Notes under the pieces: generated by a model | What the model was told of the DNA's origin: nothing | The model's input: only the letters and a program-made list of their open reading frames with translations | Database searches by the model: none | Virus record (IMG/VR): IMGVR_UViG_3300005253_002810 | DNA: 64,000 bases | Reading direction: 5' to 3' (one strand) | From: an uncultured virus (IMG/VR IMGVR_UViG_3300005253_002810) | Taxonomy: Duplodnaviria; Heunggongvirae; Uroviricota; Caudoviricetes | In this document: positions 11,472 through 33,864 of the stretch, in pieces | Position numbering within the stretch: the stretch's first letter is position 1 | Layout: each line of letters begins with the position of its first letter | Translations under genes and position numbers: made by a program

Positions 11472-11529
11472 GTTAGCAATTTTCCAGCATATAATTGATA
11501 TTACCTGCGCGGGTAAAGGTATAATAAAA

Positions 11530-11690: not shown

Positions 11691-11693
11691 TGA

Positions 11694-14600
11694 ATGGTGC
11701 GCATAAGGTCAGCCAACGAAATTATTTTAAGTCTAATAGACTATTACAGATCTACTGCGGCTTTGTTAGACACAAAGCCCGGAACAGTTACTAGAGATGT
11801 AATAATTGACGGGCCGTCATCGCAGCTAGCCAGACTTTATGAAGAACTTGCAGGTGTTGCTAATTTACAGTCACTATCTCTTACAGTTGGTGCCGATTTA
11901 GATCGATTATCTCAGAATTTTGGAGCCGTCCGACAGAGGGGCGCTAAGGCAAGCGGCCCCGTGCTATTTACTTTTAACAATTTAGATGCTGATATTCCGA
12001 TTAATAAAGGAGACATAGTTCGGGCTAAAAATGGTCAGACCTTTGTAGTTCTTAATAGCTTCACAATAAGCACAATTCTTGAGACCACATTTCGCGCAAC
12101 AGCTGCTAGATTTAGATCCGATTTAGACTTTGTAGGCATTACTGATGCGTTTGTGGCTGAGATTCTTGTTGAAGCAACGTCTTCGGGCATTCAGGGTAAC
12201 ATTTCAAAATATTCAATAACTAGCACTGCTATCGCAGCTATCAATAATGTGACTAATGCTTCGCCATTTGGTGGCGGAAGAGATACAGAAGATGATTCCA
12301 CTTTCCGTAACAGAGTATTGGCGATTTTCAGTGGTGCTAATACGGGCACAGCTTTAGGATATAAAAATGCCGCACTATCTGATCCGTCAGTAATTGATGC
12401 CATAGTAATTGAGCCTGGCGACGATCTTATGACTCGTGATGGCACTCAGGTTTCTGTATCTAGCGATGGTACTAGAACTATAACTTCGACAGGAACTGGC
12501 GGGAAAGTAGATGTTTTGATTTTCGGAACAAGGATTCAGGAAACTGTTGATAGTAGAATCTTCCAAGAACTTAGCAATACCGGTGATACAACTAATTCAG
12601 AAAATGATTTTGTTCTTGGTCAAATTGCTGCCGATGTAAATAAGACCGTTGCAAGAAAAAGGCTCGATAATCTTGATGATGGAACCCTCCCAAGCCAGCC
12701 AGTTAATAGCATTGTGTCAGTTAGCGGATCTTTAAGTGGTGGAAATTTTGTCGAAAAAGCAACTGACAGTTTGGGCAGAGTTACAGGAAATTTTGAAATT
12801 GTAAAGGATACAGGAGCTTTTGCCGGAAGCCCTTGGGCATTTGATAAGCTTCATTGGGTTGATAATAAGATAAACGATCTGGAAGAAGATAAAACAAAGA
12901 TTGCATTTAATGGGCAGGATCCATTATCTTTTACAGACCTTCTTGAAATTAATGTTGGACGGCAAAACATAGCTGTTATCAATGAAAATAGTCAGGTATC
13001 TTCGAGCGATAGAAGCTCGGTACAGCTTGCACATTTCCCCACATCAAACGTAACAAGAGTTTTCAACACAACTACTGGGGAAAGATATATAGTCTCAAAC
13101 CAAAATCCTGATGGGTCTGGAAGCACAAATCTGACAGGGCGAATCGTAATTAGAGGACAGAGCCTGCCGGCAATAAGTGATACCCTGCAAGTAGATTATA
13201 CGTGGGTATTTGATTACGATCCTACTTTTGATTTTGACAATCGAGCGACAACAACTAATCCACGGGCTGTACAGGACAGTATAGATTGGGGCTTTCCAAA
13301 TGCAGTGAGAAGAGAGCGAGCAATACTTATGGCCTCAGGCTCTTCGCTTTTGGTTACAGTTACTCATCCAATAAGCTCAATTGTTAGTGTTAATGTTTTT
13401 GAAGAAGATACCGGTACAGTTACCTTATCTTCAGGCAGGTTGGCCTTTATAACTTCAGTTGCCGTTACTGGTGTAATTAGCATAATCAGAAGCTCTGATG
13501 GGACCGATGTGTATAATTCAAGTGATGCTGATGGGTCTTTCAGTGGCAATACAATATTCTTACCAACAGATACGGTGGCCAGTTTTGGTGACAGTGTAGC
13601 TGTAACATATAATGCGACAGATGTTTACAATGCTGATACACAAGGTAATTTTAGTAGCAATATTATCACAATTGTACTTTCTGCAATCGCTACAGCAGGA
13701 ACATTGGTAGAAGCAAATTATATTGCGAATGTAAGCACATTATTTCCAAGCACTCTCTTGCCATCATTGCCTGCAATTCGTTCAGGAAATACTTTTGATA
13801 TTGATGGGCCGGATAATGTAGGGACGCAACCTACAACGCATGTTTTTGCTGGAGATGGTAGTATTGTTAAAAACCTAAGACGCGCTCCATCGAATTTAGG
13901 CCTTACGATATCAGGGTCTGTATCTCCGGGCATTATTACAGTAACTGGAACCACATTATTATTTGCGCAAGATGTAGTCTACACAGTTGGTACGGCAGGG
14001 TTAAAACAGAATATTTCATCTGCTGTCAAGTCATTCCTTGGCCTGGCCACAAACCAATCAGTGCCATCAAATGTAAAACTGGCAAGAGTTACAAAAGTTG
14101 AGCGTGTCAGTACGACATCTAATTTATCTATGCTTGCAGTGCTTGATACGTATGATTTGAGAGGTTACGCTATTCTTGACAATAGTTTTGTCAAAGAAGA
14201 GTCTATCGTTGATATGTTATTAGCATCAACAGAAGTAGAATTACCATCAACACCAGATAATCTAGCAAATGTGCCTAGTGTTGGAGACAGAATTCGTATT
14301 ACGTTTCATGTATCTACTACGGCAGATACAGAGAATGTATCATTTAGCAGAAGTGGACTATTATATACCAATAAACGTTTTGCGCTTGTTGATACAATGG
14401 CAGTATCTAGTGGGTTTACATCTGCACCGTCTGCCGCGGCCACATTAACTGTGACCAGTTTAAACCAGCCCATAACCAGGTCACGATATAAAGTGCTCTA
14501 TGATTATACTGCTCCAAAAGTAAATGAGAGAATAACGGTTAGATATAATCTTGATAAGCTTATAACCGATGTTACTTTGGCAATAGAAAACACGCGACCA

Positions 14601-14933
14601 ATCAATGCGGATGTTCTTGTTAAGGCCTCCGTTTCAATACCTGTAAATGTAACAATGAATGTAGTTGTAACGGAATCATTTGTCAACAATACTGAAATTG
14701 TTAGGCAGAATGTACAAGACGCCATTACTTCAGCATTAAATGCCACGGCATTAGGAACTGTTGTTGATTCAAGCGATCTGATAAATGCCGCATATGGAGT
14801 GGCTGGCGTTGACCGTGCAAGAATATTGTTCTTTAACAAAGCGAGCGAGTCAGGCTCCGTTCTTAGTATACAAGCTCTTAAAAATGAGTTTATTACTGCT
14901 AATGTTGTAACTATTACTATTGAAACACGATAA
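11694..14933 (+). CDS. Baseplate J/gp47-like wedge protein with large insertion
   Basis: N-terminal J-like motifs (GADLDRLSQNFGAVRQRGAKASG; GNISKYSIT...NVTNASPFGGGRDTEDDSTFRNR; GTALGYKNAA) and a J-like C-terminus (DSSDLINAAYGVAGVDR); 1079 aa. Confidence 0.85.
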   Translation: MVRIRSANEIILSLIDYYRSTAALLDTKPGTVTRDVIIDGPSSQLARLYEELAGVANLQSLSLTVGADLDRLSQNFGAVRQRGAKASGPVLFTFNNLDADIPINKGDIVRAKNGQTFVVLNSFTISTILETTFRATAARFRSDLDFVGITDAFVAEILVEATSSGIQGNISKYSITSTAIAAINNVTNASPFGGGRDTEDDSTFRNRVLAIFSGANTGTALGYKNAALSDPSVIDAIVIEPGDDLMTRDGTQVSVSSDGTRTITSTGTGGKVDVLIFGTRIQETVDSRIFQELSNTGDTTNSENDFVLGQIAADVNKTVARKRLDNLDDGTLPSQPVNSIVSVSGSLSGGNFVEKATDSLGRVTGNFEIVKDTGAFAGSPWAFDKLHWVDNKINDLEEDKTKIAFNGQDPLSFTDLLEINVGRQNIAVINENSQVSSSDRSSVQLAHFPTSNVTRVFNTTTGERYIVSNQNPDGSGSTNLTGRIVIRGQSLPAISDTLQVDYTWVFDYDPTFDFDNRATTTNPRAVQDSIDWGFPNAVRRERAILMASGSSLLVTVTHPISSIVSVNVFEEDTGTVTLSSGRLAFITSVAVTGVISIIRSSDGTDVYNSSDADGSFSGNTIFLPTDTVASFGDSVAVTYNATDVYNADTQGNFSSNIITIVLSAIATAGTLVEANYIANVSTLFPSTLLPSLPAIRSGNTFDIDGPDNVGTQPTTHVFAGDGSIVKNLRRAPSNLGLTISGSVSPGIITVTGTTLLFAQDVVYTVGTAGLKQNISSAVKSFLGLATNQSVPSNVKLARVTKVERVSTTSNLSMLAVLDTYDLRGYAILDNSFVKEESIVDMLLASTEVELPSTPDNLANVPSVGDRIRITFHVSTTADTENVSFSRSGLLYTNKRFALVDTMAVSSGFTSAPSAAATLTVTSLNQPITRSRYKVLYDYTAPKVNERITVRYNLDKLITDVTLAIENTRPINADVLVKASVSIPVNVTMNVVVTESFVNNTEIVRQNVQDAITSALNATALGTVVDSSDLINAAYGVAGVDRARILFFNKASESGSVLSIQALKNEFITANVVTITIETR

Positions 14934-17900
14934 TGGCTAATCTAAGGCTAGTAAGACTAAAAGTGCTTGATAGCACCTCTATTAGGGTTCGGTTTACCGA
15001 GCCATTGAGTCCGCTTATCAACACCTCAAGTGTCATTATAGTCTCCAATATTGTTGGGGTTCCAGATGCAGAGGTGCTTAAGGTAACTATTAGTGGCGAT
15101 ACGATGGATATTAAGTCGTTGCCAATGACACCATTTGCTTCGTATTTTGTCACATTCAAAACTACAAGCTCTTCAGATTTTAAGTCGGTAAATGGTAATT
15201 TCCTATTTGAAGATGGAACTACTAATGCCCCGCTCGTGCTTGGACAAGAAGATCCTGATGATCCTATTAGAGAGTTCCTTATCAACTTATTGAAGGATAA
15301 TGTTTACAATTTGGACACGGGCACATTAGTAAGAACAATAGTTAATGGCCAGTCAACTTTCCTAGCAGGTGCATTGCATGATATTGGTCAGGCCAAAAAT
15401 GACAACTATCTTCTCAACATTATTCCTGATGAAAGGAAAACCCGAGGGGGCGGACCATATGATAGATTAAACGAGGAAGGAGCATTTAAGACTGTTCGAG
15501 TTGGTCAAACTCAAACTAATGCCACATTGCCTGGAACCATAAGTTTTGCCAGTTTTCCTAGTGGTCCGATTACGCTACAAGCAGCAACTATATCCGGTGA
15601 AACACTGATGGCCGGAACTGGTGCATCAACATTCGATAGATTAACACTAACGGTCTTAAAAAGATTTGTAACCAAATTACTTAGCGTTAGCGTTAGGTAT
15701 GCGTCTGATGGTGCTACAGAAACTTATGATATAGCAACATTTGGATATCAAGTATTAAATCCAAGGTATGATCAAGCTTTTGCGTCTCCTCTGCTTACCT
15801 TAACTGATACGCAGTTCCAGTTAAGCGATTTATCATTTGAGGATGATTCTTTTAGACTACCTATTCCTGGCGATGTTATTACTGTAAGCTATGAGTTCAA
15901 GAATGAAGGAAAATTCGTTGACGAAGACAGCGTTATGGTATCTCAGGTGCTAGATGCAGTGCGTGAGTCAACTTTACCAATTGCTACAGAGTTTTCACTT
16001 AGTCATGCCCCGGTTGTAACGGCAAATGATACAATTGCAGCGGCTGATGGTGTTACATTTTTGGATCCAGAATCTAATCCTCCATTTACCGCCACTCACC
16101 CGGCATTTGCAAAAGAAATACCCTTTAGGACTGAGGGCTTGCCTAAAAATACAGGAGAATATGCTGTTGATTATACGACTGGTAGGGTGTTTACATATGG
16201 TGCCGTATCAAATGATGGAACAGGAAACTTCCCACCAACAGCAACATATAAATACAGAAGCGTATTTCGTGCTGATTTAGATTATACATATGATACCGGG
16301 CTTGTAGAGCTTGTTACTAACCCATTAAGAGATTTAACTACGCAGATAGCTAAAATTTCATTTGATTATGAGCAAACTTTAATCCCAGAAGTAGACTTTA
16401 AATCCCAAATTCACAAAGAGGTACTTGCTGAAAGAATTAATAACAGATTAAATTCAACAAATTCTCTTTCGGTCTTAAATGTTCCAGTCACAAACGTTTT
16501 TAGGATATTTAATGAGACAACCGGTGAAGTTTATAAGGCCACAAGATTTAATAACGAGAAAGTGTATTTCAATTCAAATAATCAGCCAAGAATATTCAGT
16601 ATTGAGCGCGAAAGAGCTACATTTGCCGATACTTTCAATGAAACACTACTAATAGATAGTGAGTTTGCCAATGTACTGGGAACTAGAGTATTAAAAATCT
16701 TATTACAGAATAATAATGTAATTTCTTCTACAGAAGATGTCATTGCGGCGAGTTACAACACTAGCGTAGCTTTTAGTAGGGCTGATGTCTTTGTGGAAGA
16801 GTTATATTTCGACGCACAGGTAATATCAGAGACAGCCAATACTAATAGGCTAACTATTGGTAGATATCAAGTTGATTACAGGAATGGTATAATCTTCCTA
16901 GGCGTCTCGTCAACCCAAACTGCTGATCTAGGCTCAATTAGCTATAAAAAGCCAGCTATACTTTCAGATAATAATCATTTAATTAGCGTTTCTGAGCTTT
17001 ATCACAGTATAAGCACAATTATAGGAATTAATAAGCGAATAGCTTTAAGCTCATTTAGTGACACTGAGATATTGCCAAATGTTTTCGATATTGCTGACGA
17101 AAGATTTTTGAATGGTGATACTGCTCTTTCTTATCTGGTATTGGGCGGAACTATTACCGTACAAGATGATATCAAAAATGTAAGGAACATTTATGACGCA
17201 TATGACCTAAATAATAATGCTACATTGACAAATTTTGCTGAAGGTGCAACTGTATCTGCAAATGTTATTACTTTAGATTCTAGTGGCGTATTAAAGCAGG
17301 ACCTTGCAGTGGTTCAGACCGGATTAGTTGTATCGGTTCCAATGGTGTCTCCTGCGGCTGAGATATTTTCGGTTATTAGTGTAACAAGAACGTCTGATAA
17401 TGTTGAGCTTTTCGATGGTAGTGGATCATTTACTGGATTTGATATAACCCTATCTGGTCTTGGGACCCCTGTTGTTGGCGAGATTGTACAAGTTACATAT
17501 AGGGCTGCATTAACAGGGGCGGCAACTCCAATTGTAGATTACAATAGGGGCGATTATTTTGTTGATTATACTTATCTAGCAGATGAAATAATTGTCAGCT
17601 ACGAATATGGTGATAATGTACTTGATTTTAGGGAAGGAAACGCTCTTGATGAGGGCGATGAGTATTTTGTTACTTATCATGTGGGCGCTTTAAGAGATGC
17701 ACTATTAAAGAACTTTGGAAGTCTTATAGATATTCCAGTAATGCAGACTTTCGATACCACATTGCCAAGAGAAAGCTATCGAGACGCTTTGAAGGGAGCA
17801 TTGCAGTCATTCACTAAGGGGCCTACCATCCCTTCTATGAAGAGTTTAGTTTCTAACATATCCCACATAGAGCCAGACATTATCGAGGCGGCTTTCCAGG

Positions 17901-20900
17901 TCTGGTCATTGGGCGTAAGCCATCTATATCCCAATGTAGTAGATTATACTGGAGATATACAGTTATTGTCCGCTAAGTTTGATAATGGCGCATTGGTCTC
18001 AAATTCGAATGAGACAATAACATTCCCCGTTTCTAGTAATCTCAAAATAGAAGACGGAACATTGGAATTTTGGACCATTCCAGATTGGAACGGACTTGAC
18101 AATGATGCAACATTAACATTCCAGGTCTTAAAAGATGGGTATATTATAGATGCATCGGAAGTATTTATTGGGGCCTCAAGCTTCAATCCTACATATGATA
18201 CGCAAAATAAATTCACAGTAAATAGGCTTGATGACCCAAGCCCAATCGGCCTGCCATCTAAAGTTTATACTGATGTAGGTTTTTTTGTTTATTATAATGT
18301 TGACGATAAGCGCTGGAATGTATTAGCCAAAGAGAAGCTAGACAAGTCAGATGGCTATATGTTCTCGGGCACGATCGAGTCGTCTGGCGAAGTATATGAT
18401 GTTAAGTTCATTCCAGAATTGGGAGAGATTAACGACGTATTGAGGAGCGGTACTAGCAAGATAGAATTTGAATTTAATCTAGATGGGCAGGATGTATTAA
18501 GCGCCGATGGGTACACTACAGGCGATGGATATTCTCCTAGTGATGGTTATGTGATTGGATTCTCGTTTGATGGCATATCACTCATGGCTGATGATGAGCA
18601 TTACCTATTTGATTTTGGAGAAACGGAATCAATAAATAGATTCTCATTATACAAAGACGGAAAGGGTTATTTGAATTTTAGGGTCCAAGATCGGGGAGAT
18701 CCGATTACTGGCAGGACTAATCAATTTAAGGTGAGCGCTGATATTTCTGATTGGCTAGCAGGCCAGAGGCATCATATAGCCGCCGCATGGAAGTTGAATA
18801 CTTCTGATAGGCAGGATGAGATGCATCTGTTTATAGATGGCGAGGAGGTTCCAAACATTTTGAAGTTTGGAGGCAGGCCTGTAGCAACATCTACAGATAG
18901 GTTCAGAACCGTTAAACCAGAGCTTGTAGTGGGCGTACTTCCTAAGAATGCTGTTGCGGGAAATGATCTTAGTACGACCGCAGGATCGACTACAGTTACT
19001 TCAGAATCGGTAGATTTTAGTGTAGCAGGAATTGTGCCTGGTGATACGATTAATATTCGAGAGACAGGGTTTGGTACTTTTACAATCGTAGGAGTATCTG
19101 GCGGCGTGCTTATCCTTTCGGCGCCAATGACAACTACTTTATCAGATGCTCGATTCTCAGTAAATGAATTCTCTTCAGTTGTAGCAACGCAACTTGATCT
19201 GTTCTCAAATTTAGCGGTATCCATTATAGACGGGTCAACCAGTGTAGAAACAGAAATACCCGGATTAAGAGCGGCAATACCAGCATATACTATTAGCAAG
19301 AACAGCTCTAATGAAGATGTGTTGACAATTCTAGGTAGCGCTAATGCCGGAGACACTGTTGTTATACGTACATTAGGATTAAACCACAGAAGGTGTCGTG
19401 AAACACATTATGTTTGGGGCAATACGAATAGTATAATAAAGACACAGCTTCCATCGCCTATTAGCCTAGATGAGGTAAAGGTTTTACCAGTATTATTGCC
19501 ACTTACTCCGATAGGCCCAGATAATGCCGTACTAATTGTTGGTAGATTCTTTGCCACTGGGCTGGCAGCAACTCAGCCATCTAATGTCACAGAAGGCAGG
19601 ACACTGTCTGTTCGTATTACTGGCGGCAATGTATCATTTTCTACACCACCGACTGTTACGATTAATGGAACTACGGTTTCTGGGCCTCTTTTTGAGACAT
19701 TGACCTTCACCTCCTCCGGGACACAGACAACAACTGAAAGGTTCTTAACGGTTACATCTGTTGATGTTGCGACAACCCCGCTTGCAACTTCAAAGAATTC
19801 AATTGCTGTCGAAATAAAGGAAGAACTTTCTATCACTGTAGCAGATGGAAACACGACATTCCCAGTAATCAGATTTAGCTACCAACTTCAGACAAGCACT
19901 TCACTTGCCGGTACATCTGGCTCAACGCTATTAACGGATACTGATGCCGTTATAGTGGAGTCATTCGTTGACAATCTTATAGTAATAAAGGCTCCGGCAC
20001 CTGCTGCGGGATCGTATACCATAACGGACAGAATTGATAATGATAGTTTTACAGTAACCCCTGCGCTCCCCGCTACATTTACAGGGGGAGAATATGACAT
20101 ATTCAATATCTCAGTTGGTAGGAGCGGATTCCAGAATGGATGGTTTGTATTTGAGGAGGCCGGTGCGGGCACAATTCCATTCCCACTTAAAGAGGGCCTA
20201 TATGAATTTGATTATTCTGCCTATATGGAAGTTAAGATTGATCCAGTTCAAAACTATACAGCATATATAGGCTCAGATCTTAATGGAAACAAGCAATCTA
20301 AGGCCATAATTGATGAGTTTAGATTGCTTTCAGGGTCAATTTCTGATGTTAGAGTCGGAGAAACATTAGCAGTAAACGAAAAATCAGTTACTGTTGACTT
20401 TACTACCTTAACGCCTTTTAGCGCGGATAGTGACACTTTAATGCTCTTACACTTTAATTCTAAGCCATTTGAAAATTCGGCAGATTTTTGGGTTACTGCA
20501 GATAAGACATTCTTACAGTCTGGAAGAGCTGTTAATGATAATTTTGGGCAAAGCCTTGTTGTGACGGATAAGGGAATAAGAAAAGAAAATAAGGGATTAT
20601 TATCGACTATATCTGAAGGCAGTATTGAATTTTGGGCAAGTCCAAGGTTTGACACTCATAACGATCCGGCTACTAGATTCTATTTTGACGCCAGTTCATC
20701 GGTAATAGAAGAAGTAGTTAGCATTACTAATACAACAGTAAAGGCATCCGGCTCTATCTCCAGCATATCTAGCGTAAGACTACAAACAGACATAGACAAC
20801 ACTGGTATAGATTTCTTTGCTGGTGGAACAATAGAGGAAAATTTCAAGACCATTAAGCTAGGAAAGGCCTTACCATCACAAAGGACGCCGGTCAAAATCG

Positions 20901-21625
20901 GCTATGTACCATTGGGTCTTTCTGGAGATAGAATATCTATATATAAGGACGGTGATGGATTTATTGTTTTCAACATTAGAGCTAATGGTGTAGATTATCA
21001 GGTTCGTCAGTTTGTGTTCTGGGCTAGAGACACCTGGCACCGCATTAGGGCAACATATAAGTTAAATAGAGCTGATAATCAGGATGAGCTTCGTTTGTTT
21101 GTTGACGGGGAAGAGCGAGGGACAGTATATTTCGGTCTAGGATTATTATTTGGACAAGGCATTTCATTCGGACAGGGATTTGCCGGAGCAGACACATCTG
21201 CTTTGACAAGCGATATTAACTTTACTGACCCAATAAATGACTTTTTCATAGGGTCAGACTTCTTAGGGGTTAATACTGCAAATGCAAGAATAGACAATCT
21301 AAGACTAAGTAATAGGGCCAGAAGCCCATTAACAGTAGCTGGTCAGGATATCGATATCAACTATAGTACTAATCTTGATATAGTATTTCCTGTAATAGAA
21401 GACGCATTCACAACCTTTCTTTGGGATTTTGACGCTATTAGGTTTAAAACAGATGATCTTTCAATACTTAGAGATGAAGAATTCGGAATCTTCAACTTTA
21501 CCCTGAATGTCATTGATTCTTTTGACATAGTATTAGGTAATGCCAAGATTCAACAGGTTTTGGAGTCTCTAGTATTTGCATTAAAACCAGCTCAATCAAA
21601 AATAGAGATAAATTACATTCAATAG
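14933..21625 (+). CDS. Giant baseplate wedge/appendage protein with gpI-like segment and LamG/ConA-like lectin domains
   Basis: 2230 aa. gpI-like core (NFGSLIDIP...ESYRDALKGALQSFTKGPTIPSMKSLV). LamG-like motifs (GTLEFW, RHHIAAAW...MHLFIDG; GSIEFW, WHRIRATY...LRLFVDG...FFIGSD...IDNLRLS). C-terminal ALKPAQSK. Confidence 0.7.
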   Translation: MANLRLVRLKVLDSTSIRVRFTEPLSPLINTSSVIIVSNIVGVPDAEVLKVTISGDTMDIKSLPMTPFASYFVTFKTTSSSDFKSVNGNFLFEDGTTNAPLVLGQEDPDDPIREFLINLLKDNVYNLDTGTLVRTIVNGQSTFLAGALHDIGQAKNDNYLLNIIPDERKTRGGGPYDRLNEEGAFKTVRVGQTQTNATLPGTISFASFPSGPITLQAATISGETLMAGTGASTFDRLTLTVLKRFVTKLLSVSVRYASDGATETYDIATFGYQVLNPRYDQAFASPLLTLTDTQFQLSDLSFEDDSFRLPIPGDVITVSYEFKNEGKFVDEDSVMVSQVLDAVRESTLPIATEFSLSHAPVVTANDTIAAADGVTFLDPESNPPFTATHPAFAKEIPFRTEGLPKNTGEYAVDYTTGRVFTYGAVSNDGTGNFPPTATYKYRSVFRADLDYTYDTGLVELVTNPLRDLTTQIAKISFDYEQTLIPEVDFKSQIHKEVLAERINNRLNSTNSLSVLNVPVTNVFRIFNETTGEVYKATRFNNEKVYFNSNNQPRIFSIERERATFADTFNETLLIDSEFANVLGTRVLKILLQNNNVISSTEDVIAASYNTSVAFSRADVFVEELYFDAQVISETANTNRLTIGRYQVDYRNGIIFLGVSSTQTADLGSISYKKPAILSDNNHLISVSELYHSISTIIGINKRIALSSFSDTEILPNVFDIADERFLNGDTALSYLVLGGTITVQDDIKNVRNIYDAYDLNNNATLTNFAEGATVSANVITLDSSGVLKQDLAVVQTGLVVSVPMVSPAAEIFSVISVTRTSDNVELFDGSGSFTGFDITLSGLGTPVVGEIVQVTYRAALTGAATPIVDYNRGDYFVDYTYLADEIIVSYEYGDNVLDFREGNALDEGDEYFVTYHVGALRDALLKNFGSLIDIPVMQTFDTTLPRESYRDALKGALQSFTKGPTIPSMKSLVSNISHIEPDIIEAAFQVWSLGVSHLYPNVVDYTGDIQLLSAKFDNGALVSNSNETITFPVSSNLKIEDGTLEFWTIPDWNGLDNDATLTFQVLKDGYIIDASEVFIGASSFNPTYDTQNKFTVNRLDDPSPIGLPSKVYTDVGFFVYYNVDDKRWNVLAKEKLDKSDGYMFSGTIESSGEVYDVKFIPELGEINDVLRSGTSKIEFEFNLDGQDVLSADGYTTGDGYSPSDGYVIGFSFDGISLMADDEHYLFDFGETESINRFSLYKDGKGYLNFRVQDRGDPITGRTNQFKVSADISDWLAGQRHHIAAAWKLNTSDRQDEMHLFIDGEEVPNILKFGGRPVATSTDRFRTVKPELVVGVLPKNAVAGNDLSTTAGSTTVTSESVDFSVAGIVPGDTINIRETGFGTFTIVGVSGGVLILSAPMTTTLSDARFSVNEFSSVVATQLDLFSNLAVSIIDGSTSVETEIPGLRAAIPAYTISKNSSNEDVLTILGSANAGDTVVIRTLGLNHRRCRETHYVWGNTNSIIKTQLPSPISLDEVKVLPVLLPLTPIGPDNAVLIVGRFFATGLAATQPSNVTEGRTLSVRITGGNVSFSTPPTVTINGTTVSGPLFETLTFTSSGTQTTTERFLTVTSVDVATTPLATSKNSIAVEIKEELSITVADGNTTFPVIRFSYQLQTSTSLAGTSGSTLLTDTDAVIVESFVDNLIVIKAPAPAAGSYTITDRIDNDSFTVTPALPATFTGGEYDIFNISVGRSGFQNGWFVFEEAGAGTIPFPLKEGLYEFDYSAYMEVKIDPVQNYTAYIGSDLNGNKQSKAIIDEFRLLSGSISDVRVGETLAVNEKSVTVDFTTLTPFSADSDTLMLLHFNSKPFENSADFWVTADKTFLQSGRAVNDNFGQSLVVTDKGIRKENKGLLSTISEGSIEFWASPRFDTHNDPATRFYFDASSSVIEEVVSITNTTVKASGSISSISSVRLQTDIDNTGIDFFAGGTIEENFKTIKLGKALPSQRTPVKIGYVPLGLSGDRISIYKDGDGFIVFNIRANGVDYQVRQFVFWARDTWHRIRATYKLNRADNQDELRLFVDGEERGTVYFGLGLLFGQGISFGQGFAGADTSALTSDINFTDPINDFFIGSDFLGVNTANARIDNLRLSNRARSPLTVAGQDIDINYSTNLDIVFPVIEDAFTTFLWDFDAIRFKTDDLSILRDEEFGIFNFTLNVIDSFDIVLGNAKIQQVLESLVFALKPAQSKIEINYIQ

Positions 21626-21632
21626 GTAAAAA

Positions 21633-24557
21633 ATGATAGCTCGCAAAGACGTAAGCATTATCCATAATCGTTGGCATGACGCCCAACGTGTCGATAAGAC
21701 AGATATGGATGTTGAACAAAATAGAGGCATTGATACAGATGCCGCAACCATTCATAATCATTTTGGTTCTGGCGTCTTGCTTGAAAGTCCAGAGCAACCG
21801 ATTATTTTTGACTCTGATAATTTAATAGCTAGCCAGGCAGCAATTGAGGCTGCGGGCAATTTTGATGGCATTGGCCTTGCTGCTCATTTGCAGCCAAGTG
21901 ATATAAACTTAGGAAATCAATTAGAGGTAAATCTTACTGGTTCTAGTGTAATTGGGCGTTTATCAATTAAAGTTGCAATTATAGGATTGTCATTTGATAA
22001 TACTGTTCAGATGGATAGGCTATATTTCTACAAGAATGAGAAACAGGTCACATCGAAGCATTATAAGCGAATTTTAACAATTTTCTTCAATGATTTTAAA
22101 GGAAACAATAACTGTTCTCGTAGTTTAGGCGGTAGAGTTGTAATTAGAGAGACTTCATCATTCCAGCTTTCCACAGATCCGATGATGGAAAGACAGGATG
22201 TTTCTCCTGATTTATTCTGGAGAGATTTTAAGGTATCAGACTCTGCAATATCATTATTTGATACGATACAGAATGGTATGGGGTCAGAATTTAGTGCGGA
22301 CGCACTATCGCTTGATATCAGCGGCACAACCGATCGTGAGATGGCAGCTAATGATGTGACATCTCAGGTTGGGCAGAAATTTCAAGCAAATACAGACAAT
22401 ATTCAGAAGGTAACTCTTCTTATTGGTGCCCGACAGAAGGATACAGGGCCTGAAGCAGATAAATTCGACTGGACCGGAGACATTGTCGTTAGCATTTATC
22501 CGCTTCAGACCAGCGTGAGCTGCCCAGTAGATATTGTACCATCATTGGCGATAGATTTTGAGCCGAGCAATGAGCCGATAGCACAGCTAAGCTTTGACCA
22601 GGCCTCGCTAGAAGATGCTGGCTATGTACTTACAAGCGTTGCTCAGCCGGTTGACTTTGTATTTAGTTCGACTAAGTTGGGCGATCCCGCTACCAGTAAT
22701 GTCGTCAAAGATCGTTTCTATGCTGTTACTATAAAGCGATCTGGATCTGCAACATCTGGCACGCTATTTTTAGGCGTAGGAATTAATAGGACCGCAGATT
22801 CCCGCGTAACACTATTTAGTGGAGTTTGGGTTGATGTTCCAGAAGAAGACTTATGGTTCCAAGTTTGGACTGATGCTGCAAAGATAGCCGATGGGCGTGG
22901 ATATGATGAAGGAAATGGAATTCAATATGATAAGACCACCACTGATGAATTAACCGGCGCAACCATAGATAATCAGGTTAGGCATTTATCATTTGCTGAT
23001 ACTGGAGAAAATATACTCAATATTGCTGTTATTCAGGCTATTGGGGAAGAAACCGTAACGGTACAAGACGAAAGAACTGGCAATAATGTAAATTCTCGCA
23101 GGAAATTCGTTCCGTCTTCTAGTTTTGTAGATGAGTCTGGATTAAGTTCGCTGCAAGGCGTTTCTAACCCATTTATTATTGGATGCACACAAGATACTAA
23201 CCCAAAACAAAATGCCATACTTGAGAAAGTCCAAACAATACCTGGCCTTGCAAGTGGCGACCAGTTTTGTATAGTAAATCCAGATCCTGATTCTCTCTCA
23301 TTGAACGTTATAGGAAGTAAGCTTATTCCGAATATAAGTAGCGCTTTCGATTATCGAATTTTTGGTGCCGATCTTTGTACTGATGGATATGGAGATGTAA
23401 ATGGCGATGGTTATATTGATGCAGCTGATATTGCTGCAGCATCACAGTTAATTGGCGAGAGTTTGTTATTCAATTCAACTCAACAAAAAATCATTGATGG
23501 ATACTTCTCAGCTCTTGAAGTATTGCGCGCAGATGTAAATGGCGATGGTTATGTTACCGCCACAGATGTTGACCTAATTACACAGTTCGTTAATAGACAA
23601 ATTAACGCATTCCCGGCTGGAGGTTCATTTACACACATATGTTATACTGTTCAGCAAAGCACAGGTAGATATGATGGGTATTTCGATTGTGATGGCTATG
23701 TGCGACTTGATGGTTATACTGGGCTTAATATTATAGATCCTGGTGACTTGTCTGCTGAAGAGCTTAAATATGATGGCTATTTAACCACACCAACGATAGA
23801 GGGCGACAGCACGTTTACTACTGTGCCATTCCCTGGGGTGACATATAGGATTGACCCACAACCATATTGGAGGCCAGAATCCCTCGCATTAAGCAGTGAA
23901 ACTAGAGCTGTGCCTGCGACATTCTTTGTTAGTACTTCTATAGACCCGCCAGATTGTTCTCAAACGCTTTCATTTGAGTGTACAGATAGAACGGCTGTCA
24001 CACCAGAGTGTGATCCTGGCAGAAATGACTTCCTAGTACCTGACAACCTAATTATAGGCAAGGGAGATATTGTCAGTCTGGATGGCACTAAACATAAGTT
24101 GGATTTTGAAATTGGAACAGTAATTTTGCAACTTCCTCAAACTCCTTTTGAAGAGGCTTCAATTAATCTATTCGATAAATTAGTAGCTGATCGTGGAGAT
24201 GGTATAACTAGAGGAGGTCTGCCCGCAATGAGGTATTCTGACTGTACAACGGTACAGGATGCAGACTTTGCATTAAATAGGATTAGATTTTCTGTTTCTG
24301 TGCAGGCTTTTGTGCCAAATATAGATGGATATACTGAGGAAGATGGTTATGGCGTTATTGTAGATGACATAATCGGTGTCCATTTGGATCATTCAACCGG
24401 AATCTTAAAACTTACAATCAAGGATCTTTTTGTGGACACGGTATTTATGACACTAGTTACAAAGTTGCAGATATTAGTATATCTGAAAAAGGCTGGGTGG
24501 AATAATGTCATTACAGTTGTCGAGCCGAGTCAGATCGCAGGATTGTTGAGCACATAA
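21633..24557 (+). CDS. Virion/tail-associated protein containing a dockerin-like domain
   Basis: 974 aa with two Ca-binding repeats, GDVNGDGYIDAAD and ADVNGDGYVTATD...INAFP; last gene of the structural run. Confidence 0.65.
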   Translation: MIARKDVSIIHNRWHDAQRVDKTDMDVEQNRGIDTDAATIHNHFGSGVLLESPEQPIIFDSDNLIASQAAIEAAGNFDGIGLAAHLQPSDINLGNQLEVNLTGSSVIGRLSIKVAIIGLSFDNTVQMDRLYFYKNEKQVTSKHYKRILTIFFNDFKGNNNCSRSLGGRVVIRETSSFQLSTDPMMERQDVSPDLFWRDFKVSDSAISLFDTIQNGMGSEFSADALSLDISGTTDREMAANDVTSQVGQKFQANTDNIQKVTLLIGARQKDTGPEADKFDWTGDIVVSIYPLQTSVSCPVDIVPSLAIDFEPSNEPIAQLSFDQASLEDAGYVLTSVAQPVDFVFSSTKLGDPATSNVVKDRFYAVTIKRSGSATSGTLFLGVGINRTADSRVTLFSGVWVDVPEEDLWFQVWTDAAKIADGRGYDEGNGIQYDKTTTDELTGATIDNQVRHLSFADTGENILNIAVIQAIGEETVTVQDERTGNNVNSRRKFVPSSSFVDESGLSSLQGVSNPFIIGCTQDTNPKQNAILEKVQTIPGLASGDQFCIVNPDPDSLSLNVIGSKLIPNISSAFDYRIFGADLCTDGYGDVNGDGYIDAADIAAASQLIGESLLFNSTQQKIIDGYFSALEVLRADVNGDGYVTATDVDLITQFVNRQINAFPAGGSFTHICYTVQQSTGRYDGYFDCDGYVRLDGYTGLNIIDPGDLSAEELKYDGYLTTPTIEGDSTFTTVPFPGVTYRIDPQPYWRPESLALSSETRAVPATFFVSTSIDPPDCSQTLSFECTDRTAVTPECDPGRNDFLVPDNLIIGKGDIVSLDGTKHKLDFEIGTVILQLPQTPFEEASINLFDKLVADRGDGITRGGLPAMRYSDCTTVQDADFALNRIRFSVSVQAFVPNIDGYTEEDGYGVIVDDIIGVHLDHSTGILKLTIKDLFVDTVFMTLVTKLQILVYLKKAGWNNVITVVEPSQIAGLLST

Positions 24558-26089: not shown

Positions 26090-27199
26090 ATGAGGGTAAA
26101 AATACAGCAGTTTTTGTGTGGAAAGTGCCATAGTTGGGCAGTTGTAGGCCAATGCATTGGAAGAGAGCTTTTAAAGCTTGACCATAATGTTGAATTCTTT
26201 TCAACAGATGGCATTAAAGATAAGTATGTGCCAGATTATTTAAGGCCGTTTCTGAAAGATAACAAGGCTGATTCTCCAAACTTTGTGGAACCACAAGGCA
26301 CGTATGGCATGCAAATTAGCTATACTGCCATGAAGAATTTTCCACACTTTTTAAGGCATGGAAATCAAAACAAATTTGCTATTTATAATTATGATGGCTC
26401 GGTTCTCCCAGAGCACTGGGCTAAGTACAGCCATTGCGTCGATAAGCTGCTACCATCTTCTGAATATTCGAAAAAGGTATTTCTTGACGCAAAGATACCA
26501 GAAGACAAATTAGAGGTAGTTCCACATGGTATCGATATTGAAGATTTCAATGTAAAGCCATATAAACTGAAGACGAAAAAGTCAATTAAGATTCTGAACG
26601 TATGTGGCCAGTTACATCGAAGGAAGAATCTATCAGGGATTTTAGACGCTTATGGTAAGGCATTCACAAAAGACGATGATGCTTGCTTGGTGTTGAAAGT
26701 GGCTGATAAGCTACCAGAGACTAAGTTTGAGGTTTCTTTCAGAGATCTATATAATAAGTGGCGTTCCAATAATAAAAACGGCCCAGAAGTTGAAGTCATT
26801 TATGATTATATAGACAGTATAGAGAGCCTATTCTTAGCTTGTGATATACATTATTCACTTTCAAACATTGAGTGTTTTCACATTCCATCATTGCAAAGTA
26901 TGGCTGCGAAAAAGCTCACTATACAATCAAATTATGGTGGCAGCGTAGATTTCATGAATGATAGCAATTCATTGCTGGTAGAAGGTAATATTGGGCGATG
27001 CCCGCCTAGATATCAATATTGGACACCATCGCCATATGCCGAAATGTTTATTCCAAACAGCGATGATGCTATTGAAAAACTTAGATATGCTGTCGATAAC
27101 TATGATAGTCTGATGGAAAGGCTTATGCCAGCCATGGAAAAGACGGTGGAACAATATACCTGGGCTAATGTGACAAAACAAATTATAGGTTTACAGTGA
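26090..27199 (+). CDS. Glycosyltransferase family 4 (GT-B)
   Basis: VVPHGID, RKNLSGILDAY, ECFHIPSLQSMA, YTWANV motifs. Confidence 0.9.
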   Translation: MRVKIQQFLCGKCHSWAVVGQCIGRELLKLDHNVEFFSTDGIKDKYVPDYLRPFLKDNKADSPNFVEPQGTYGMQISYTAMKNFPHFLRHGNQNKFAIYNYDGSVLPEHWAKYSHCVDKLLPSSEYSKKVFLDAKIPEDKLEVVPHGIDIEDFNVKPYKLKTKKSIKILNVCGQLHRRKNLSGILDAYGKAFTKDDDACLVLKVADKLPETKFEVSFRDLYNKWRSNNKNGPEVEVIYDYIDSIESLFLACDIHYSLSNIECFHIPSLQSMAAKKLTIQSNYGGSVDFMNDSNSLLVEGNIGRCPPRYQYWTPSPYAEMFIPNSDDAIEKLRYAVDNYDSLMERLMPAMEKTVEQYTWANVTKQIIGLQ

Positions 27200-28017
27200 T
27201 AGAACTAAAGAAAGATATAAAAAACACAACATCAGATGATGATATGTTCACTGTGCAAAAAGACAGCAGCATAGATTTGAGCATAATCGTGCCGGTATTC
27301 AACAATGTTAACTTTACAATGTTAGCCCTTGAGGGGCTTGGCAAGCTGCCTAGCAATTATGAAGTGCTTATTGTGGATAATAACAGCGAAGATGACACAG
27401 AAGAAGTAGTAGAAGAATTCATAACAAAAGCACCAAAAGACAGGGCCTCTATTTCTTATATAGGATGTCCTAGAAATATGGGATTTAGTGCAGCTAATAA
27501 TAAAGGATTCAAATATTCAAGAGGCAGGAATATTCTATTCCTAAACAATGATATTCGTATTGAGGATGATTTTGAAACGTGGCCAGAGGAAATGGTGCGA
27601 TTAGCTGAAGAGGGTTATATTATTGGCGCAGATGGCGGGCTGTTGGATGGTCAATTCAACTATGTAACAACGGGTACAAACTTGCCACGGACAAACCGTT
27701 GGTATTTGAGCGGCTGGTGTTTATGTGGATCCAGAGAAACTTTTGACAAGTTAAAGCTCAACCACTACTCTAATTCAGAAGGGCAAATTGTTGAGGGAAC
27801 ACAATCGTGGGGACCTTGGAACGAAAAGTTCTTCCTTTATTTTGAGGATGGTGATTTAACTTGGCGAGCAAGAGACCTTGGAATTGAGCTTAAGGAGATA
27901 AGAGTACCAATTCATCATTTCGGCAGAATTACAGGTCGTAAATATGGAATGTTTGGATATTATAAGAAGTCCCAAAGGATATTCAAGATAGAGTGGAAAG
28001 AAAGATATAGATCATGA
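27196..28017 (+). CDS. Glycosyltransferase family 2
   Basis: SIIVPVFN, IVDNNSED, NMGFSAANNKG, LFLNND, YFEDGDL motifs. Confidence 0.9.
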   Translation: MIELKKDIKNTTSDDDMFTVQKDSSIDLSIIVPVFNNVNFTMLALEGLGKLPSNYEVLIVDNNSEDDTEEVVEEFITKAPKDRASISYIGCPRNMGFSAANNKGFKYSRGRNILFLNNDIRIEDDFETWPEEMVRLAEEGYIIGADGGLLDGQFNYVTTGTNLPRTNRWYLSGWCLCGSRETFDKLKLNHYSNSEGQIVEGTQSWGPWNEKFFLYFEDGDLTWRARDLGIELKEIRVPIHHFGRITGRKYGMFGYYKKSQRIFKIEWKERYRS

Positions 28018-28229
28018 TAAATCATTTAAAGAATATAGTTCTAATAGGGGCCATCCCGGTTATAATGTTTTGGATTGCCGTCCTTCTGGGATTTTGGTTT
28101 TATCCAGAGGACATGGATGGCGCAAGTAACCTGATAATGGTATTTGCCGGTACAGGTTGTTTGGTTGCACTATTCTTGTTAGTGCGGAACATAAGGCGTG
28201 GCATAGAGTACTTTCTTAAAAGGAAATAA
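28014..28229 (+). CDS. Small two-TM membrane protein
   Basis: Two hydrophobic helices and a basic C-terminus; overlaps both neighbours. Confidence 0.6.
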   Translation: MINHLKNIVLIGAIPVIMFWIAVLLGFWFYPEDMDGASNLIMVFAGTGCLVALFLLVRNIRRGIEYFLKRK

Positions 28230-29053
28230 TGATCTATGTATTGACGCTAACTTGGAATGGCCTTGATAGTCTTAAAAAGCTCAAAGGTGGTCTAATAAGA
28301 AATCTCAACAATGTTGATACAGATTACGACGCAGTATGGTGTGTCCGTGACAATGGTTCTACAGATGGGACTGCTGAGTGGTTAAATGAAATTAGGAAAT
28401 ACGGAAATGTTGCGACGCTTCCTTTACTTATAGATCACAATAGAGATAATTTTGCCCAGGGAGTTAACTCTTTAGCAAATATGGTTTATGACGAATACGA
28501 TTATGCTAATTCTAATGATTTTTTCTTGCTTCTAAATAATGATGTAGAATTTGTTGATGATACGTCACTATTAAAAATGATGCATCTGATGAAAGATCCT
28601 AAGGTTGGTGTGGTTGGTGCCAGGCTGCTATACAGTGGTACGAATAAATTGCAGCACGGTGGTGTCATATTCGGACGTAGGTATAGCAACATGCCATATC
28701 ATTATCGGCACCAAGAAGAATCTGATAAACACGCGGAGAAGAACCGATACTTTCAAGCAGTAACTGCGGCATGTTGTCTAATTAGGGCTAAGGCGTTTCA
28801 GAAGATGAGTGAGATATATTTTTGGAGTTTTGAAGATACAGATTTATGCTTAAGAATCAAGAAGGCCGGATGGAAGATTGCATATTGTGGAGAAACCAGA
28901 ATCTACCATGAGGAAAGTGCGTCATTGAAGAAGAATCCGGTCAACAAAATGTTCCTCCAACAGAATGTAGAGCACTTCAAGAGTAAGTGGTTTGGCAAAT
29001 ATGAGCTTGACCACGAGAAGTATTTGAAAAATCCTAACTATAAAGTGATTTAG
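28229..29053 (+). CDS. Glycosyltransferase family 2
   Basis: DNGSTDGT, LLLNNDV, AVTAACCLI, FEDTDLCLR, HEESAS motifs. Confidence 0.9.
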   Translation: MIYVLTLTWNGLDSLKKLKGGLIRNLNNVDTDYDAVWCVRDNGSTDGTAEWLNEIRKYGNVATLPLLIDHNRDNFAQGVNSLANMVYDEYDYANSNDFFLLLNNDVEFVDDTSLLKMMHLMKDPKVGVVGARLLYSGTNKLQHGGVIFGRRYSNMPYHYRHQEESDKHAEKNRYFQAVTAACCLIRAKAFQKMSEIYFWSFEDTDLCLRIKKAGWKIAYCGETRIYHEESASLKKNPVNKMFLQQNVEHFKSKWFGKYELDHEKYLKNPNYKVI

Positions 29054-33824: not shown

Positions 33825-33864
33825 GTTTTGCTCATAATTGTTATATAACGAGAATGGCGAGGCA

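What the first reader, a model, noticed from the sequence alone, without database searches (positions are those of the whole stretch)
18134..24350. Asp-Gly-Tyr (DGY) tripeptide strongly enriched in virion proteins: candidate modification sequon
Seen: 10 DGY copies in the C-terminal ~40% of the 974-aa protein (e.g. RYDGYFDCDGYVRLDGYTG, NIDGYTEEDGYG; two lie in the dockerin loops). Five more cluster in the 2230-aa protein (KDGY, SDGY, ADGYTTGDGYSPSDGY), with one each in the 729-aa and 137-aa proteins. I saw none in the non-structural proteins downstream. A rough chance expectation is well under one per 1000 aa. Codons vary (ggt/gga/ggc/ggg, tat/tac), so selection acts on the peptide rather than on a DNA repeat. 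Known: Tyr in acidic context is the substrate of tyrosine sulfation, and Tyr O-glycosylation occurs on some S-layer proteins. Inference: DGY may be the acceptor motif for the adjacent GT or sulfotransferase island, or else a metal-binding or docking motif.
Basis: partly seen in the sequence, partly recalled or inferred. Interest (0 to 1): 0.85.

Follow-up and report, generated by a model that had tools for sequence, protein, structure and literature searches.

The report
DGY motif on giant-phage tails
The outer tail, baseplate and fibre proteins of this uncultured giant phage and its relatives carry the exact tripeptide Asp-Gly-Tyr far more often than chance, at turns and in floppy surface loops; it looks like an undescribed surface tag, perhaps a sugar-attachment site, but no modification has been shown.

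Summary
There are 17 DGY in the 9 tail and baseplate ORFs (8,080 aa; 1.04 expected; P 2e-15; the top tripeptide). There are none in the 39 ORFs downstream. The signal is at peptide level: 17 of the 20 plus-strand GAYGGNTAY sites are in frame, against 1 on the minus strand.

The motif is lineage-wide. The DGY columns are kept in 102-115 of 116 homologues of the 974-aa protein. In homologues of the 2230-aa protein one loop holds 2-7 intact DGY units between freely varying spacers: 285 DGY against 26 one-letter near-misses, and no DGF. In 64 of 65 related loci the structural genes are enriched at least 4-fold; summed, 762 observed against 44.8 expected. Relatives also carry DGY in a sheath insertion and in giant fibre-like proteins.

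Four sites in the 974-aa protein belong to a dockerin module, two of them in its Ca loops. Other sites sit at tight turns or in low-confidence loops.

My best reading (0.4) is a sequon-like tag read by a soluble phage transferase from the conserved glycosyltransferase block. Direct binding units and a purely structural turn remain live rivals. The sulfation reading is weak. Nothing shows a modification.

Two earlier notes of this scan report the same motif on other genomes of the clade.

The parts
14933..21625 (+). 2230-aa distal baseplate/fibre protein with 5 DGY. It follows the Baseplate_J-like gene.
   Evidence: ORF. Pfam Laminin_G_3 at aa 1997-2065. 570 homologues. DGY sites.
17930..18952 (+). 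Modelled part (aa 1000-1340) of the 2230-aa protein, beta-sandwich folds, carrying all 5 of its DGY.
   Evidence: AlphaFold model, pLDDT 79.2, pTM 0.70. Only weak Foldseek rows, to laminin LG pairs, E 5e-3.
18134..18142 (+). DGY at aa 1068. D-G forms a tight turn after a strand and Tyr starts the next strand.
   Evidence: model residues 69-71, block pLDDT about 98. DGY at this loop in 40 of 80 aligned homologues.
18350..18358 (+). DGY at aa 1140. D-G ends a loop and Tyr is the first residue of a strand.
   Evidence: model residues 141-143, pLDDT about 94. 45 of 80 homologues have DGY in this loop.
18506..18550 (+). Array DGY-TTG-DGY-SPS-DGY (aa 1192-1206) in a hypervariable loop.
   Evidence: Model segment 191-207 has pLDDT below 50. 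In 85 of 87 anchored homologues this loop holds 2-7 DGY units, and 86 of the 87 loop sequences are distinct. 285 DGY against 26 near-misses.
21633..24557 (+). 974-aa baseplate/fibre protein with 10 DGY in its C-terminal 40%.
   Evidence: 356 homologues. 6-12 DGY in each of 116 full-length homologues.
23382..23594 (+). Dockerin type I module (Pfam span aa 586-654) with 4 DGY at aa 584, 592, 622 and 638. The sites at 592 and 638 are D5-G6-Y7 of the two Ca loops.
   Evidence: Pfam Dockerin_1 1.8e-10. PDB profile hits to dockerins, best 8e-8. Foldseek dockerin rows with prob 1.00 and TMt 0.7-0.8. pLDDT 87-96.
23673..23780 (+). Block RY-DGY-FDC-DGY-VRL-DGY (aa 681-695) plus DGY at aa 714.
   Evidence: These columns are kept in 114, 105, 110 and 102 of 116 homologues. 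pLDDT 47-58 in the model. The block is absent from the far clade.
24324..24350 (+). DGY-TEE-DGY (aa 898-906), a site whose copy number varies.
   Evidence: Kept in 115 and 110 of 116 homologues. Relatives have 1 to 4 units here. pLDDT 53-64.
6855..6863 (+). Single DGY in the 137-aa ORF (6669-7082).
   Evidence: No family hit.
8473..8481 (+). Single DGY in the 729-aa ORF (7084-9273).
   Evidence: Weak PHROG tape-measure hit, 5.5e-5.
11037..14933 (+). Context: gp25-like sheath initiator (11037-11471) and Baseplate_J-like protein (11694-14933). Both have 0 DGY.
   Evidence: Pfam and PHROGs. Counts.
26090..27199 (+). GT4-like glycosyltransferase, first gene of the glycan block and the candidate reader of the motif.
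   Evidence: Pfam Glycos_transf_1 4e-5 and PHROG glycosyltransferase 4e-22. Homologue in 12 of 15 related records. ECFxLPGLE consensus, an E-x7-E spacing. No TM-like segment.
27196..49369 (.). Rest of the glycan island: GT2 x5, GT10 (minus strand), GT11, Glyco_trans_1_2, FkbM methyltransferase, HAD, nucleotidyltransferase with intein, two sulfotransferases (41079-41744 and 42622-43290), GDP-mannose dehydratase and an epimerase.
   Evidence: Pfam. NCBIfam gives only generic polysaccharide GT2 hits below cut-off. No polytopic membrane protein.

Best explanation
DGY is a selected short surface motif on the exposed tail, baseplate and fibre proteins of one lineage of giant myophages.

Most likely it is a sequon-like tag. 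The Tyr hydroxyl would be the acceptor, the Asp at -2 a recognition element, and the Gly would permit the turn. A soluble phage transferase would read it; the conserved GT4-like and GT2 genes just downstream of the baseplate genes are the best candidates. The variable remainder of the island (fucosyl-, methyl- and sulfo-transferases, sugar-nucleotide enzymes) would then elaborate the glycan into a coat on the tail.

Shown: the enrichment, its strictness, its conservation, its confinement to virion proteins, its turn or loop placement, and the linkage to a soluble glycosyltransferase block.

Inferred: that any residue is modified, which enzyme does it, and what the glycan is for.

Four of the ten sites in the 974-aa protein are at the same time ordinary parts of a dockerin module.
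For: (1) Strictness. In the hypervariable loop of 87 homologues there are 285 DGY against 26 one-letter neighbours (6 xG-aromatic, 7 DxY, 13 DGx), with no DGF. In seven other virion proteins of relatives the counts are DGY 47, NGY 0, EGY 0, DGF 2, DGW 0, DYG 2, GDY 2, YGD 2 (these regions were picked because they held DGY pairs).

(2) Spacers of 0-8 residues and 2-7 copies vary freely while the units stay intact. 86 of 87 loop sequences are distinct. No wider consensus surrounds DGY.

(3) Arrays sit in different loops of the same domain in different clades, which points to repeated gain.

(4) The Tyr hydroxyl is kept. Phe makes up 8 of 941 residues in the 8 conserved DGY Tyr columns, against 201 of 1,416 in 12 other conserved aromatic columns.

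(5) The motif marks outer virion parts only:
- A sheath insertion, and 531-, 1747-, 1857- and 1481-aa proteins of relatives.
- In a complete 459-kb relative, 71 of 101 coding-strand sites lie in two blocks totalling 78 kb.
- In 65 loci, 762 observed against 44.8 expected upstream of the GT4-like gene. Downstream, 17 against 26.0 in 69 loci.

(6) Sites are turns or low-confidence loops.

(7) A GT4-like gene at 30-58% identity lies next to the structural genes in every relative with enough sequence. The island has no polytopic membrane protein, and 26 of its 30 proteins have no TM-like segment. This suits a cytoplasmic acceptor.

(8) The motif is invariant across hosts while the spacers diverge. 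Its reader is therefore something inherited with the phage or something universal.
Against: No modification has been observed.

Co-occurrence with the glycosyltransferase block is total but comes from a single lineage, so it carries little weight. No natural knock-out was found.

The island could instead decorate DNA or a host polysaccharide.

Several DGY are highly conserved, well-packed positions (the dockerin core, pLDDT 87-96). These look structural, and a transferase may be unable to reach them.

At both well-modelled non-dockerin sites D-G makes a turn and Tyr starts a strand. A purely structural motif would look the same.

I know of no Tyr O-glycosylation sequon.

Outside the virion blocks of the complete relative, DGY-coding words are about as frequent as the control, roughly 25 against 23, so avoidance is not clear. 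The depletion downstream (17 against 26.0) is weak and the loci are related.

The GT4-like protein has no PDB relative by sequence. It is only about 23% identical to glycosyltransferases of Streptomyces phages.
Confidence: 0.4

Rival explanations
1. DGY units are themselves the working parts: small Asp+Tyr hot spots that bind a common ligand, such as a cation or a sugar of the host envelope. Many weak sites on the sheath, baseplate and fibres would give reversible adsorption.
For: The units are on outer tail parts and in flexible loops of lectin-like beta-sandwich domains. Copy number varies as it does for avidity repeats. Both the Asp carboxylate and the Tyr hydroxyl are kept. Two sites are true Ca loops.
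Against: Binding loops of receptor-binding proteins usually vary with the host. Here the unit is invariant across proteins only 35-40% identical while everything around it changes. A generic Tyr/Asp/Gly paratope would not need a fixed order: DYG, GDY and YGD occur only 2 times each against 47 DGY. The arrays contain no DxDxDG-type Ca motif.
Confidence: 0.25
2. DGY is purely structural: a favoured tight turn (Asp-Gly) followed by a Tyr that clips the next strand or an inter-subunit contact. It was inherited and multiplied by duplication.
For: At both well-modelled non-dockerin sites D-G is the turn and Tyr starts the strand. Four sites belong to the dockerin fold. Columns in the 974 family are kept in 102-115 of 116 sequences, like core positions. 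Exact 12-nt tandem copies in one relative show that units arise by duplication (G006 13383-13415).
Against: Asn-Gly makes the same turn (from general knowledge of turn propensities) but is almost absent: NGY 0 against DGY 47, and 1 against 285. Structural Tyr usually exchanges with Phe, but here it does so in 8 of 941 cases. Arrays with spacers of 0-8 residues in a segment with pLDDT below 50 are not a fixed fold element. T4 structural proteins show no such enrichment.
Confidence: 0.2
3. DGY is a docking peptide for another virion protein or an assembly chaperone, for example decoration fibres that clip on to the tail.
For: The motif is confined to virion proteins and is multivalent.
Against: No candidate partner was identified. 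Three residues is very short for a protein-protein motif. Some sites lie in compact domain positions.
Confidence: 0.07
4. The Tyr of DGY is sulfated by the island's two sulfotransferases.
For: Two sulfotransferase-domain proteins lie in the island. The Tyr has an acidic neighbour.
Against: Sulfotransfer_1 was found in only 2 of 5 relatives. A record rated 100% complete gave only a sub-threshold Sulfotransfer_3 hit, yet it has 101 coding-strand DGY words. The far-clade island examined runs from the GT4-like gene to the tubulin gene with no sulfotransferase. Next to fucosyltransferases and GDP-sugar enzymes, glycan sulfation is the simpler role.
Confidence: 0.05
5. There is no function: low-complexity D/G/Y loops generated by replication slippage.
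For: Tandem 12-nt copies exist in a relative. Unrelated G/Y/D/S low-complexity proteins are common in viral contigs.
Against: In the window the codons differ between units. Synonymous variants abound while one-letter neighbours are rare. Single DGY sites at many non-repetitive positions are conserved in more than 100 homologues.
Confidence: 0.03

Closest known systems
Virion glycosylation of mycobacteriophages by phage-encoded glycosyltransferases (Freeman et al. 2023; seen only as cited in PMC12619734; details recalled)
   Same: Phage glycosyltransferase genes lie beside structural genes, and the idea is that a cytoplasmic phage enzyme decorates virion proteins.
   Different: As described in the passage read, the glycans there sit at the C-termini of capsid and tail-tube subunits. 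Here the candidate sites are Tyr in a strict DGY unit on tail, baseplate and fibre proteins, and nothing has been shown chemically.
Extended bacterial N-glycosylation sequon D/E-X-N-X-S/T read by PglB (recalled, not from a call)
   Same: A very short tag with an acidic residue two positions before the acceptor, usable in any exposed loop and tolerant of any flanks.
   Different: The acceptor is Asn rather than Tyr. The enzyme is a periplasmic membrane oligosaccharyltransferase. The island here has no polytopic membrane protein.
Tyrosine O-glycosylation of S-layer proteins (Paenibacillus alvei, Thermoanaerobacter; passages of PMC2943079)
   Same: Tyr is the O-glycan acceptor on a surface array protein.
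   Different: There are two to four sites per protein and the passages read give no consensus. Transfer is of a lipid-linked glycan outside the cytoplasm.
Dockerin type I / EF-hand-like Ca loop DxNxDGxxD
   Same: DGY at aa 592 and 638 are D5-G6-x7 of such loops, and the module is a true dockerin.
   Different: This explains only 2 of the 17 sites as Ca-loop residues, or 4 as part of the module. Position 7 is free in the family at aa 592 (DGY in 61 of 116). The arrays have no Ca-loop pattern.
His-x-His iron-binding repeats of the T4 long tail fibre tip (recalled, not from a call)
   Same: A tiny repeated motif in a phage fibre protein, selected for chemistry rather than fold.
   Different: Those repeats have fixed spacing on a trimer axis and bind metal. 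DGY spacing is free, and metal binding is untested.

Membership tests
Dockerin type I (PF00404) | Two tandem F-hand Ca loops (DxNxDGxxDxxD), each followed by a helix | tested here: met
   Pfam 1.8e-10 over aa 586-654. PDB profile hits to dockerins. Foldseek prob 1.00, TMt 0.7-0.8. The model shows loop-helix twice at pLDDT 87-96.
Dockerin type I (PF00404) | Binds a cohesin partner | not tested
   I did not search for a cohesin in the window or in relatives.
Protein glycosylation sequon | The acceptor residue carries a glycan | not testable with these tools
   Needs mass spectrometry of virions or of co-expressed protein.
Protein glycosylation sequon | Short invariant core, free flanks, located in exposed turns or loops | tested here: met
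   No coordinates were available, so solvent exposure itself was not computed.
Protein glycosylation sequon | A cognate transferase co-inherited with the motif | tested here: inconclusive
   A GT4-like gene is present in 12 of 15 records (the 3 without are 5-18% complete). 64 of 65 GT4-bearing loci are DGY-enriched upstream. All belong to one lineage, and no lineage has one without the other.
Protein glycosylation sequon | Enzyme-substrate contact | not testable with these tools
Tyrosine sulfation site (TPST/RaxST type) | A sulfotransferase present wherever the motif is | tested here: not met
   PF00685 in 2 of 5 relatives. PF13469 gave no hit over its cut-off in 4 records.
DxDxDG-type calcium-binding motif | Asp at positions 1, 3 and 5 with Gly at 6 | tested here: not met
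   Met only in the two dockerin loops. Arrays read P-DGY-V-DGY-SII-DGY and so on, with no such spacing.
G/Y/D/S low-complexity phage proteins | Long runs made almost only of G, Y, D and S | tested here: not met
   Such proteins turned up in the viral-contig scan. The window's DGY sites lie in ordinary beta-sandwich and dockerin sequence.

The most novel reading that the evidence does not exclude
DGY is the first sequon for cytoplasmic tyrosine O-glycosylation. A conserved soluble phage GT4-like/GT2 pair primes Tyr in D-G-Y turns on the sheath, baseplate and fibres of a whole clade of 300-470-kb phages. A fast-changing set of fucosyl-, methyl- and sulfo-transferases then builds a lineage-specific glycan coat on the tail.
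Probability: 0.3. Interest if true: 0.85.

Novelty: new variant of a known kind. Interest (0 to 1): 0.7.

Why it matters
A three-residue unit kept intact in hundreds of divergent virion proteins, while everything around it changes, is a clear mark of selection with no described reader.

If it is a tyrosine glycosylation tag, it would give a portable sequon for cytoplasmic glycoengineering. It would also explain why giant phages carry large glycan islands next to their tail genes.

If the units bind ligands directly, they would be a new minimal adhesion element of phage tails.

Either way the question is now testable, using one soluble domain (aa 1000-1340 of the 2230-aa protein) and a handful of enzymes.

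Two searches of the held library found no paper on such a motif: 'DGY motif' gave 0 papers, and 'Asp-Gly-Tyr' and variants gave 18 papers (15 listed), none of the listed ones on phage (listing only).

Tried and rejected
DNA-level motif (methylation or restriction site): rejected, because the enrichment is specific to frame and strand.

Diversity-generating retroelement: rejected on reasoning. DGY codons contain adenines and would be mutated rather than spared. No call tested this.

General property of myophage structural proteins: rejected by the T4 control, 5 against 1.87.

Cultured relatives: none for the 974-aa or 2230-aa proteins in 50,697 phage records.

Host: one 3-kb contig of a metagenome bin and one source label on a homologue disagree, and neither is reliable. 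I left the host open.

A conserved unknown protein of about 325 aa in the island: the far-clade ORFs of that size are only 10-13% identical, so it is not a shared core gene.

ESM Atlas search of aa 655-974: best score 0.77, below the lead level.

PDB sequence searches: the GT4-like protein has no hit, and the GT2 gives generic hits only. NCBIfam gives only generic polysaccharide GT2 models far below cut-off.

Earlier notes of this scan: none for this genome or for this sequence.

Whole genome of the window: not held.

Structure prediction: the first full-length job failed, so I modelled two parts instead. No coordinates are returned, so burial of the tyrosines could not be measured.

The paper on tyrosine O-glycosylation (PMC4397588) is not held, so the sequence context of known Tyr-glycosylated sites was not seen.
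Full report
**What the window is.** All but one of the ORFs of at least 100 aa that I took as genes lie on the plus strand. The first 25 kb encode a contractile-tail baseplate module:
- a gp25-like sheath initiator (11037-11471);
- a Baseplate_J-like protein (11694-14933);
- a 2230-aa protein with a Laminin_G_3 hit;
- a 974-aa protein with a dockerin type I domain.

Next comes an island of about 23 kb holding glycosyltransferases (GT4-like, GT2 x5, GT10, GT11, Glyco_trans_1_2), an FkbM methyltransferase, a HAD protein, a nucleotidyltransferase, two sulfotransferases, GDP-mannose dehydratase and epimerases. After that come a tubulin-like protein, helicases, a sigma-like factor and ribonucleotide reductase, several of them with inteins. 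Relatives lie on viral contigs of up to 459-473 kb. This is therefore an uncultured giant myophage. No cultured phage has a homologue of either large protein.

**The observation.**
- From each protein's own composition, 1.04 DGY are expected in the nine structural ORFs (8,080 aa) and 17 are seen. P is 2.2e-15, by far the strongest of 3,674 tripeptides.
- The 39 ORFs downstream have 0 against 2.07 expected.
- Twenty-two T4 structural proteins have 5 against 1.87, so this is not a general trait of myophage tails.
- Asp is always GAT, but the Gly and Tyr codons vary.
- The word GAYGGNTAY occurs 20 times on the coding strand, 17 of them in frame, and once on the other strand. Selection is on the peptide.

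**Conservation.** The 974-aa protein has 356 homologues.
- In 116 full-length homologues the DGY count is 6-12.
- Eight of the ten columns are DGY in 102-115 of 116 sequences. The other two are DGY in 61 and 77.
- Replacements are rarely Phe or Asn. In the eight conserved DGY Tyr columns Phe is 8 of 941 residues, against 201 of 1,416 in twelve other conserved aromatic columns. However, six of those twelve columns are just as strict.
- A more distant clade (37-43% identity) keeps the dockerin loops but lacks the DGY-FDC-DGY-VRL-DGY block. At aa 584 it has IYGD where the near clade has DGYGD, so there D-G was added in front of an existing Tyr.

**The 2230-aa family.** It has 570 homologues, and 114 full-length ones carry 3-9 DGY each.
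- My anchor pattern found the loop before the xSFDG strand in 87 of 120 sequences; the other 33 were dropped.
- 85 of those 87 loops hold 2-7 DGY units. The two without are longer proteins anchored in another domain.
- 86 of the 87 loop sequences are distinct, and spacers run from 0 to 8 residues.
- In these loops there are 285 DGY against 26 one-letter neighbours, with no DGF and one NGY.
- In an 80-sequence alignment DGY sits in three different loops: 40, 45 and 75 sequences have at least one DGY in each. The far clade has its arrays in a different loop from the near clade.
- Still more distant homologues carry arrays in these and in other loops.
- In one relative, exact 12-nt tandem copies show how units multiply.

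**Beyond the two proteins.** In five related records, DGY pairs 0-5 residues apart occur 7-14 times on the coding strand. They never occur on the other strand or with the reversed control pattern.
- I fetched three regions because they held such pairs, which is an ascertainment bias. They encode a tail sheath with 3 DGY in its insertion domain, proteins of 531 aa (6 DGY) and 1747 aa (5 DGY), and two paralogous giant proteins with 17 and 13 DGY. DGY is the top tripeptide in five of the seven proteins.
- In a record rated 100% complete (459 kb) there are 101 coding-strand words, 9 on the other strand, and 28 and 19 for the control. 71 of the 101 lie in two blocks totalling 78 kb. Elsewhere the density is close to the control.
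- Five further large records show the same strand bias. One is less clear: 71 against 22, with controls of 50 and 33.
- In 14 loci around homologues of the 974-aa protein, the three structural genes hold 186 DGY against 12.6 expected. The downstream ORFs hold 13 against 5.5, and four of those 13 are in a protein with nine Ig-like repeats.
- In 65 loci around GT4-like homologues, the upstream ORFs hold 762 against 44.8 expected. 64 of the 65 are enriched at least 4-fold. The exception is a glycosyltransferase only 23% identical, from what looks like another kind of phage.
- Downstream ORFs in all 69 loci hold 17 against 26.0. These loci overlap the earlier sets and are related to one another.

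**Structure.** For aa 1000-1340 of the 2230-aa protein, the model has pLDDT 79.2 and pTM 0.70.
- DGY 1068 and DGY 1140 each have D-G in a turn and Tyr as the first residue of the next strand, at pLDDT 94-98.
- The triple array lies in a segment with pLDDT below 50.
- Foldseek gives only weak rows, to laminin LG pairs.

For aa 501-974 of the 974-aa protein, the model has pLDDT 74.2.
- Four DGY lie in the well-modelled dockerin: at a strand end, in a Ca loop, at a helix end, and in the second Ca loop.
- The other six lie in segments of pLDDT 47-64.
- Foldseek confirms the dockerin and nothing else.
- Coordinates are not returned, so I could not measure burial.

**The neighbouring enzymes.** A GT4-like gene at 34-56% identity is present in all ten large relatives I searched. 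It is also present in two of five more distant fragments; the three without it are 5-18% complete.
- Its family alignment shows an ECFxLPGLE consensus, which has an E-x7-E spacing.
- Island content differs between relatives. In a far-clade record it runs from the GT4-like gene to the tubulin gene in about 7 kb. In the window it spans about 23 kb.
- None of the 30 proteins from 24557 to 52511 is polytopic, and 26 have no TM-like segment. No flippase, polymerase or oligosaccharyltransferase is evident.
- Sulfotransfer_1 is found in 2 of 5 relatives. The complete record has only a sub-threshold Sulfotransfer_3 hit.

**Reading.** The pattern to explain has four features:
- an exact ordered tripeptide;
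- intolerance of Asn, Glu or Phe;
- free flanks, spacing and copy number, with repeated gain in different surface loops;
- restriction to outer tail parts, and invariance across a clade whose other loop residues diverge freely.

This is what a tag read by a co-inherited enzyme would look like. The conserved soluble glycosyltransferase block next to the tail genes is the obvious candidate. I put this at 0.4.

It is not shown. No modification has been seen, and the co-occurrence comes from one lineage. The island may serve DNA or a host glycan. Several sites also look like ordinary fold positions.

Direct binding by the units (0.25) and a purely structural turn (0.2) both remain live. A docking peptide (0.07), tyrosine sulfation (0.05) and neutral slippage (0.03) are less likely.

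**Earlier notes.** Two notes of this scan (e1-5369563, e1-5829547) report the same motif on other genomes of the clade and lean to the same reading. They are not independent evidence. One prompted the Tyr-to-Phe count that I made here.

**Literature seen.**
- Passages of PMC2943079: S-layer tyrosine glycosylation, with no consensus in the passages read.
- Passages of PMC12619734: glycosyltransferases as core genes of another large-phage lineage, and its citation of mycobacteriophage virion glycosylation.
- Search listings only for the rest.
- Supplements were not consulted.

Noticed in passing
window 23388-23594: A true dockerin type I module sits on a baseplate or fibre protein of a phage. 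It could anchor the phage to a cohesin on the host surface or on another virion protein. I did not look for a cohesin.
   Followed up: partly
window 39718-41073, 49350-52511, 56592-58394, 61564-63999: Intein and LAGLIDADG homing-endonuclease domains interrupt a nucleotidyltransferase, an epimerase/dehydratase (1053 aa) and ribonucleotide reductase. The 600-aa ORF at 56592-58394 also carries LAGLIDADG and Hom_end domains.
   Followed up: no
window 40286-40346: A run of 61 N lies inside the intein-bearing nucleotidyltransferase ORF.
   Followed up: no
window 52536-53924: A tubulin/TubZ-like protein directly follows the glycan island. A tubulin-domain gene follows the shorter island in far-clade locus L014.
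   Followed up: no
window 24557-26075: A LigT-like 2'-5' RNA ligase/phosphoesterase and a thioredoxin-like protein with an N-terminal hydrophobic segment lie between the fibre genes and the glycan island. In L003 the LigT-like protein also weakly matches the anti-CBASS Acb1 family, E 3e-4.
   Followed up: no
L012 13247-15865: One far-clade relative has an extra 872-aa protein with nine Big_3_5 Ig-like repeats and 4 DGY, placed between the fibre gene and the GT4-like gene.
   Followed up: no
L018 930-6500 and L019 559-5001 (record G006): Two paralogous giant proteins (over 1857 and over 1481 aa, with internal repeats) carry 17 and 13 DGY and match no Pfam or PHROG family. Recurrent strings include GDGYWSLDGYTLYP. 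A similar DGY-dense block lies 41-53 kb downstream of the fibre gene in a complete relative, which would be just past the end of this window.
   Followed up: partly
L022, L032, L047, L048, L060-L062 and many others: The viral-contig scan also pulled in unrelated proteins. Some are long G/Y/D/S low-complexity runs (DGYGDGYGSG...). Others form a family of GYD-x-x-GYD repeats with a period of about 5 residues.
   Followed up: no
G006 13371-13415 (homologue of the 974-aa protein): Exact 12-nt tandem copies (GATGGATATAGT) give four DGY where the window has two, which looks like a recent duplication at the site of variable copy number.
   Followed up: partly
G003 55721-55801: A relative has a GC-rich DGYGSGYGDGY... 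run encoded with GAC/GGC/TAC codons only, unlike the AT-rich codons used elsewhere, and far from the virion blocks.
   Followed up: no
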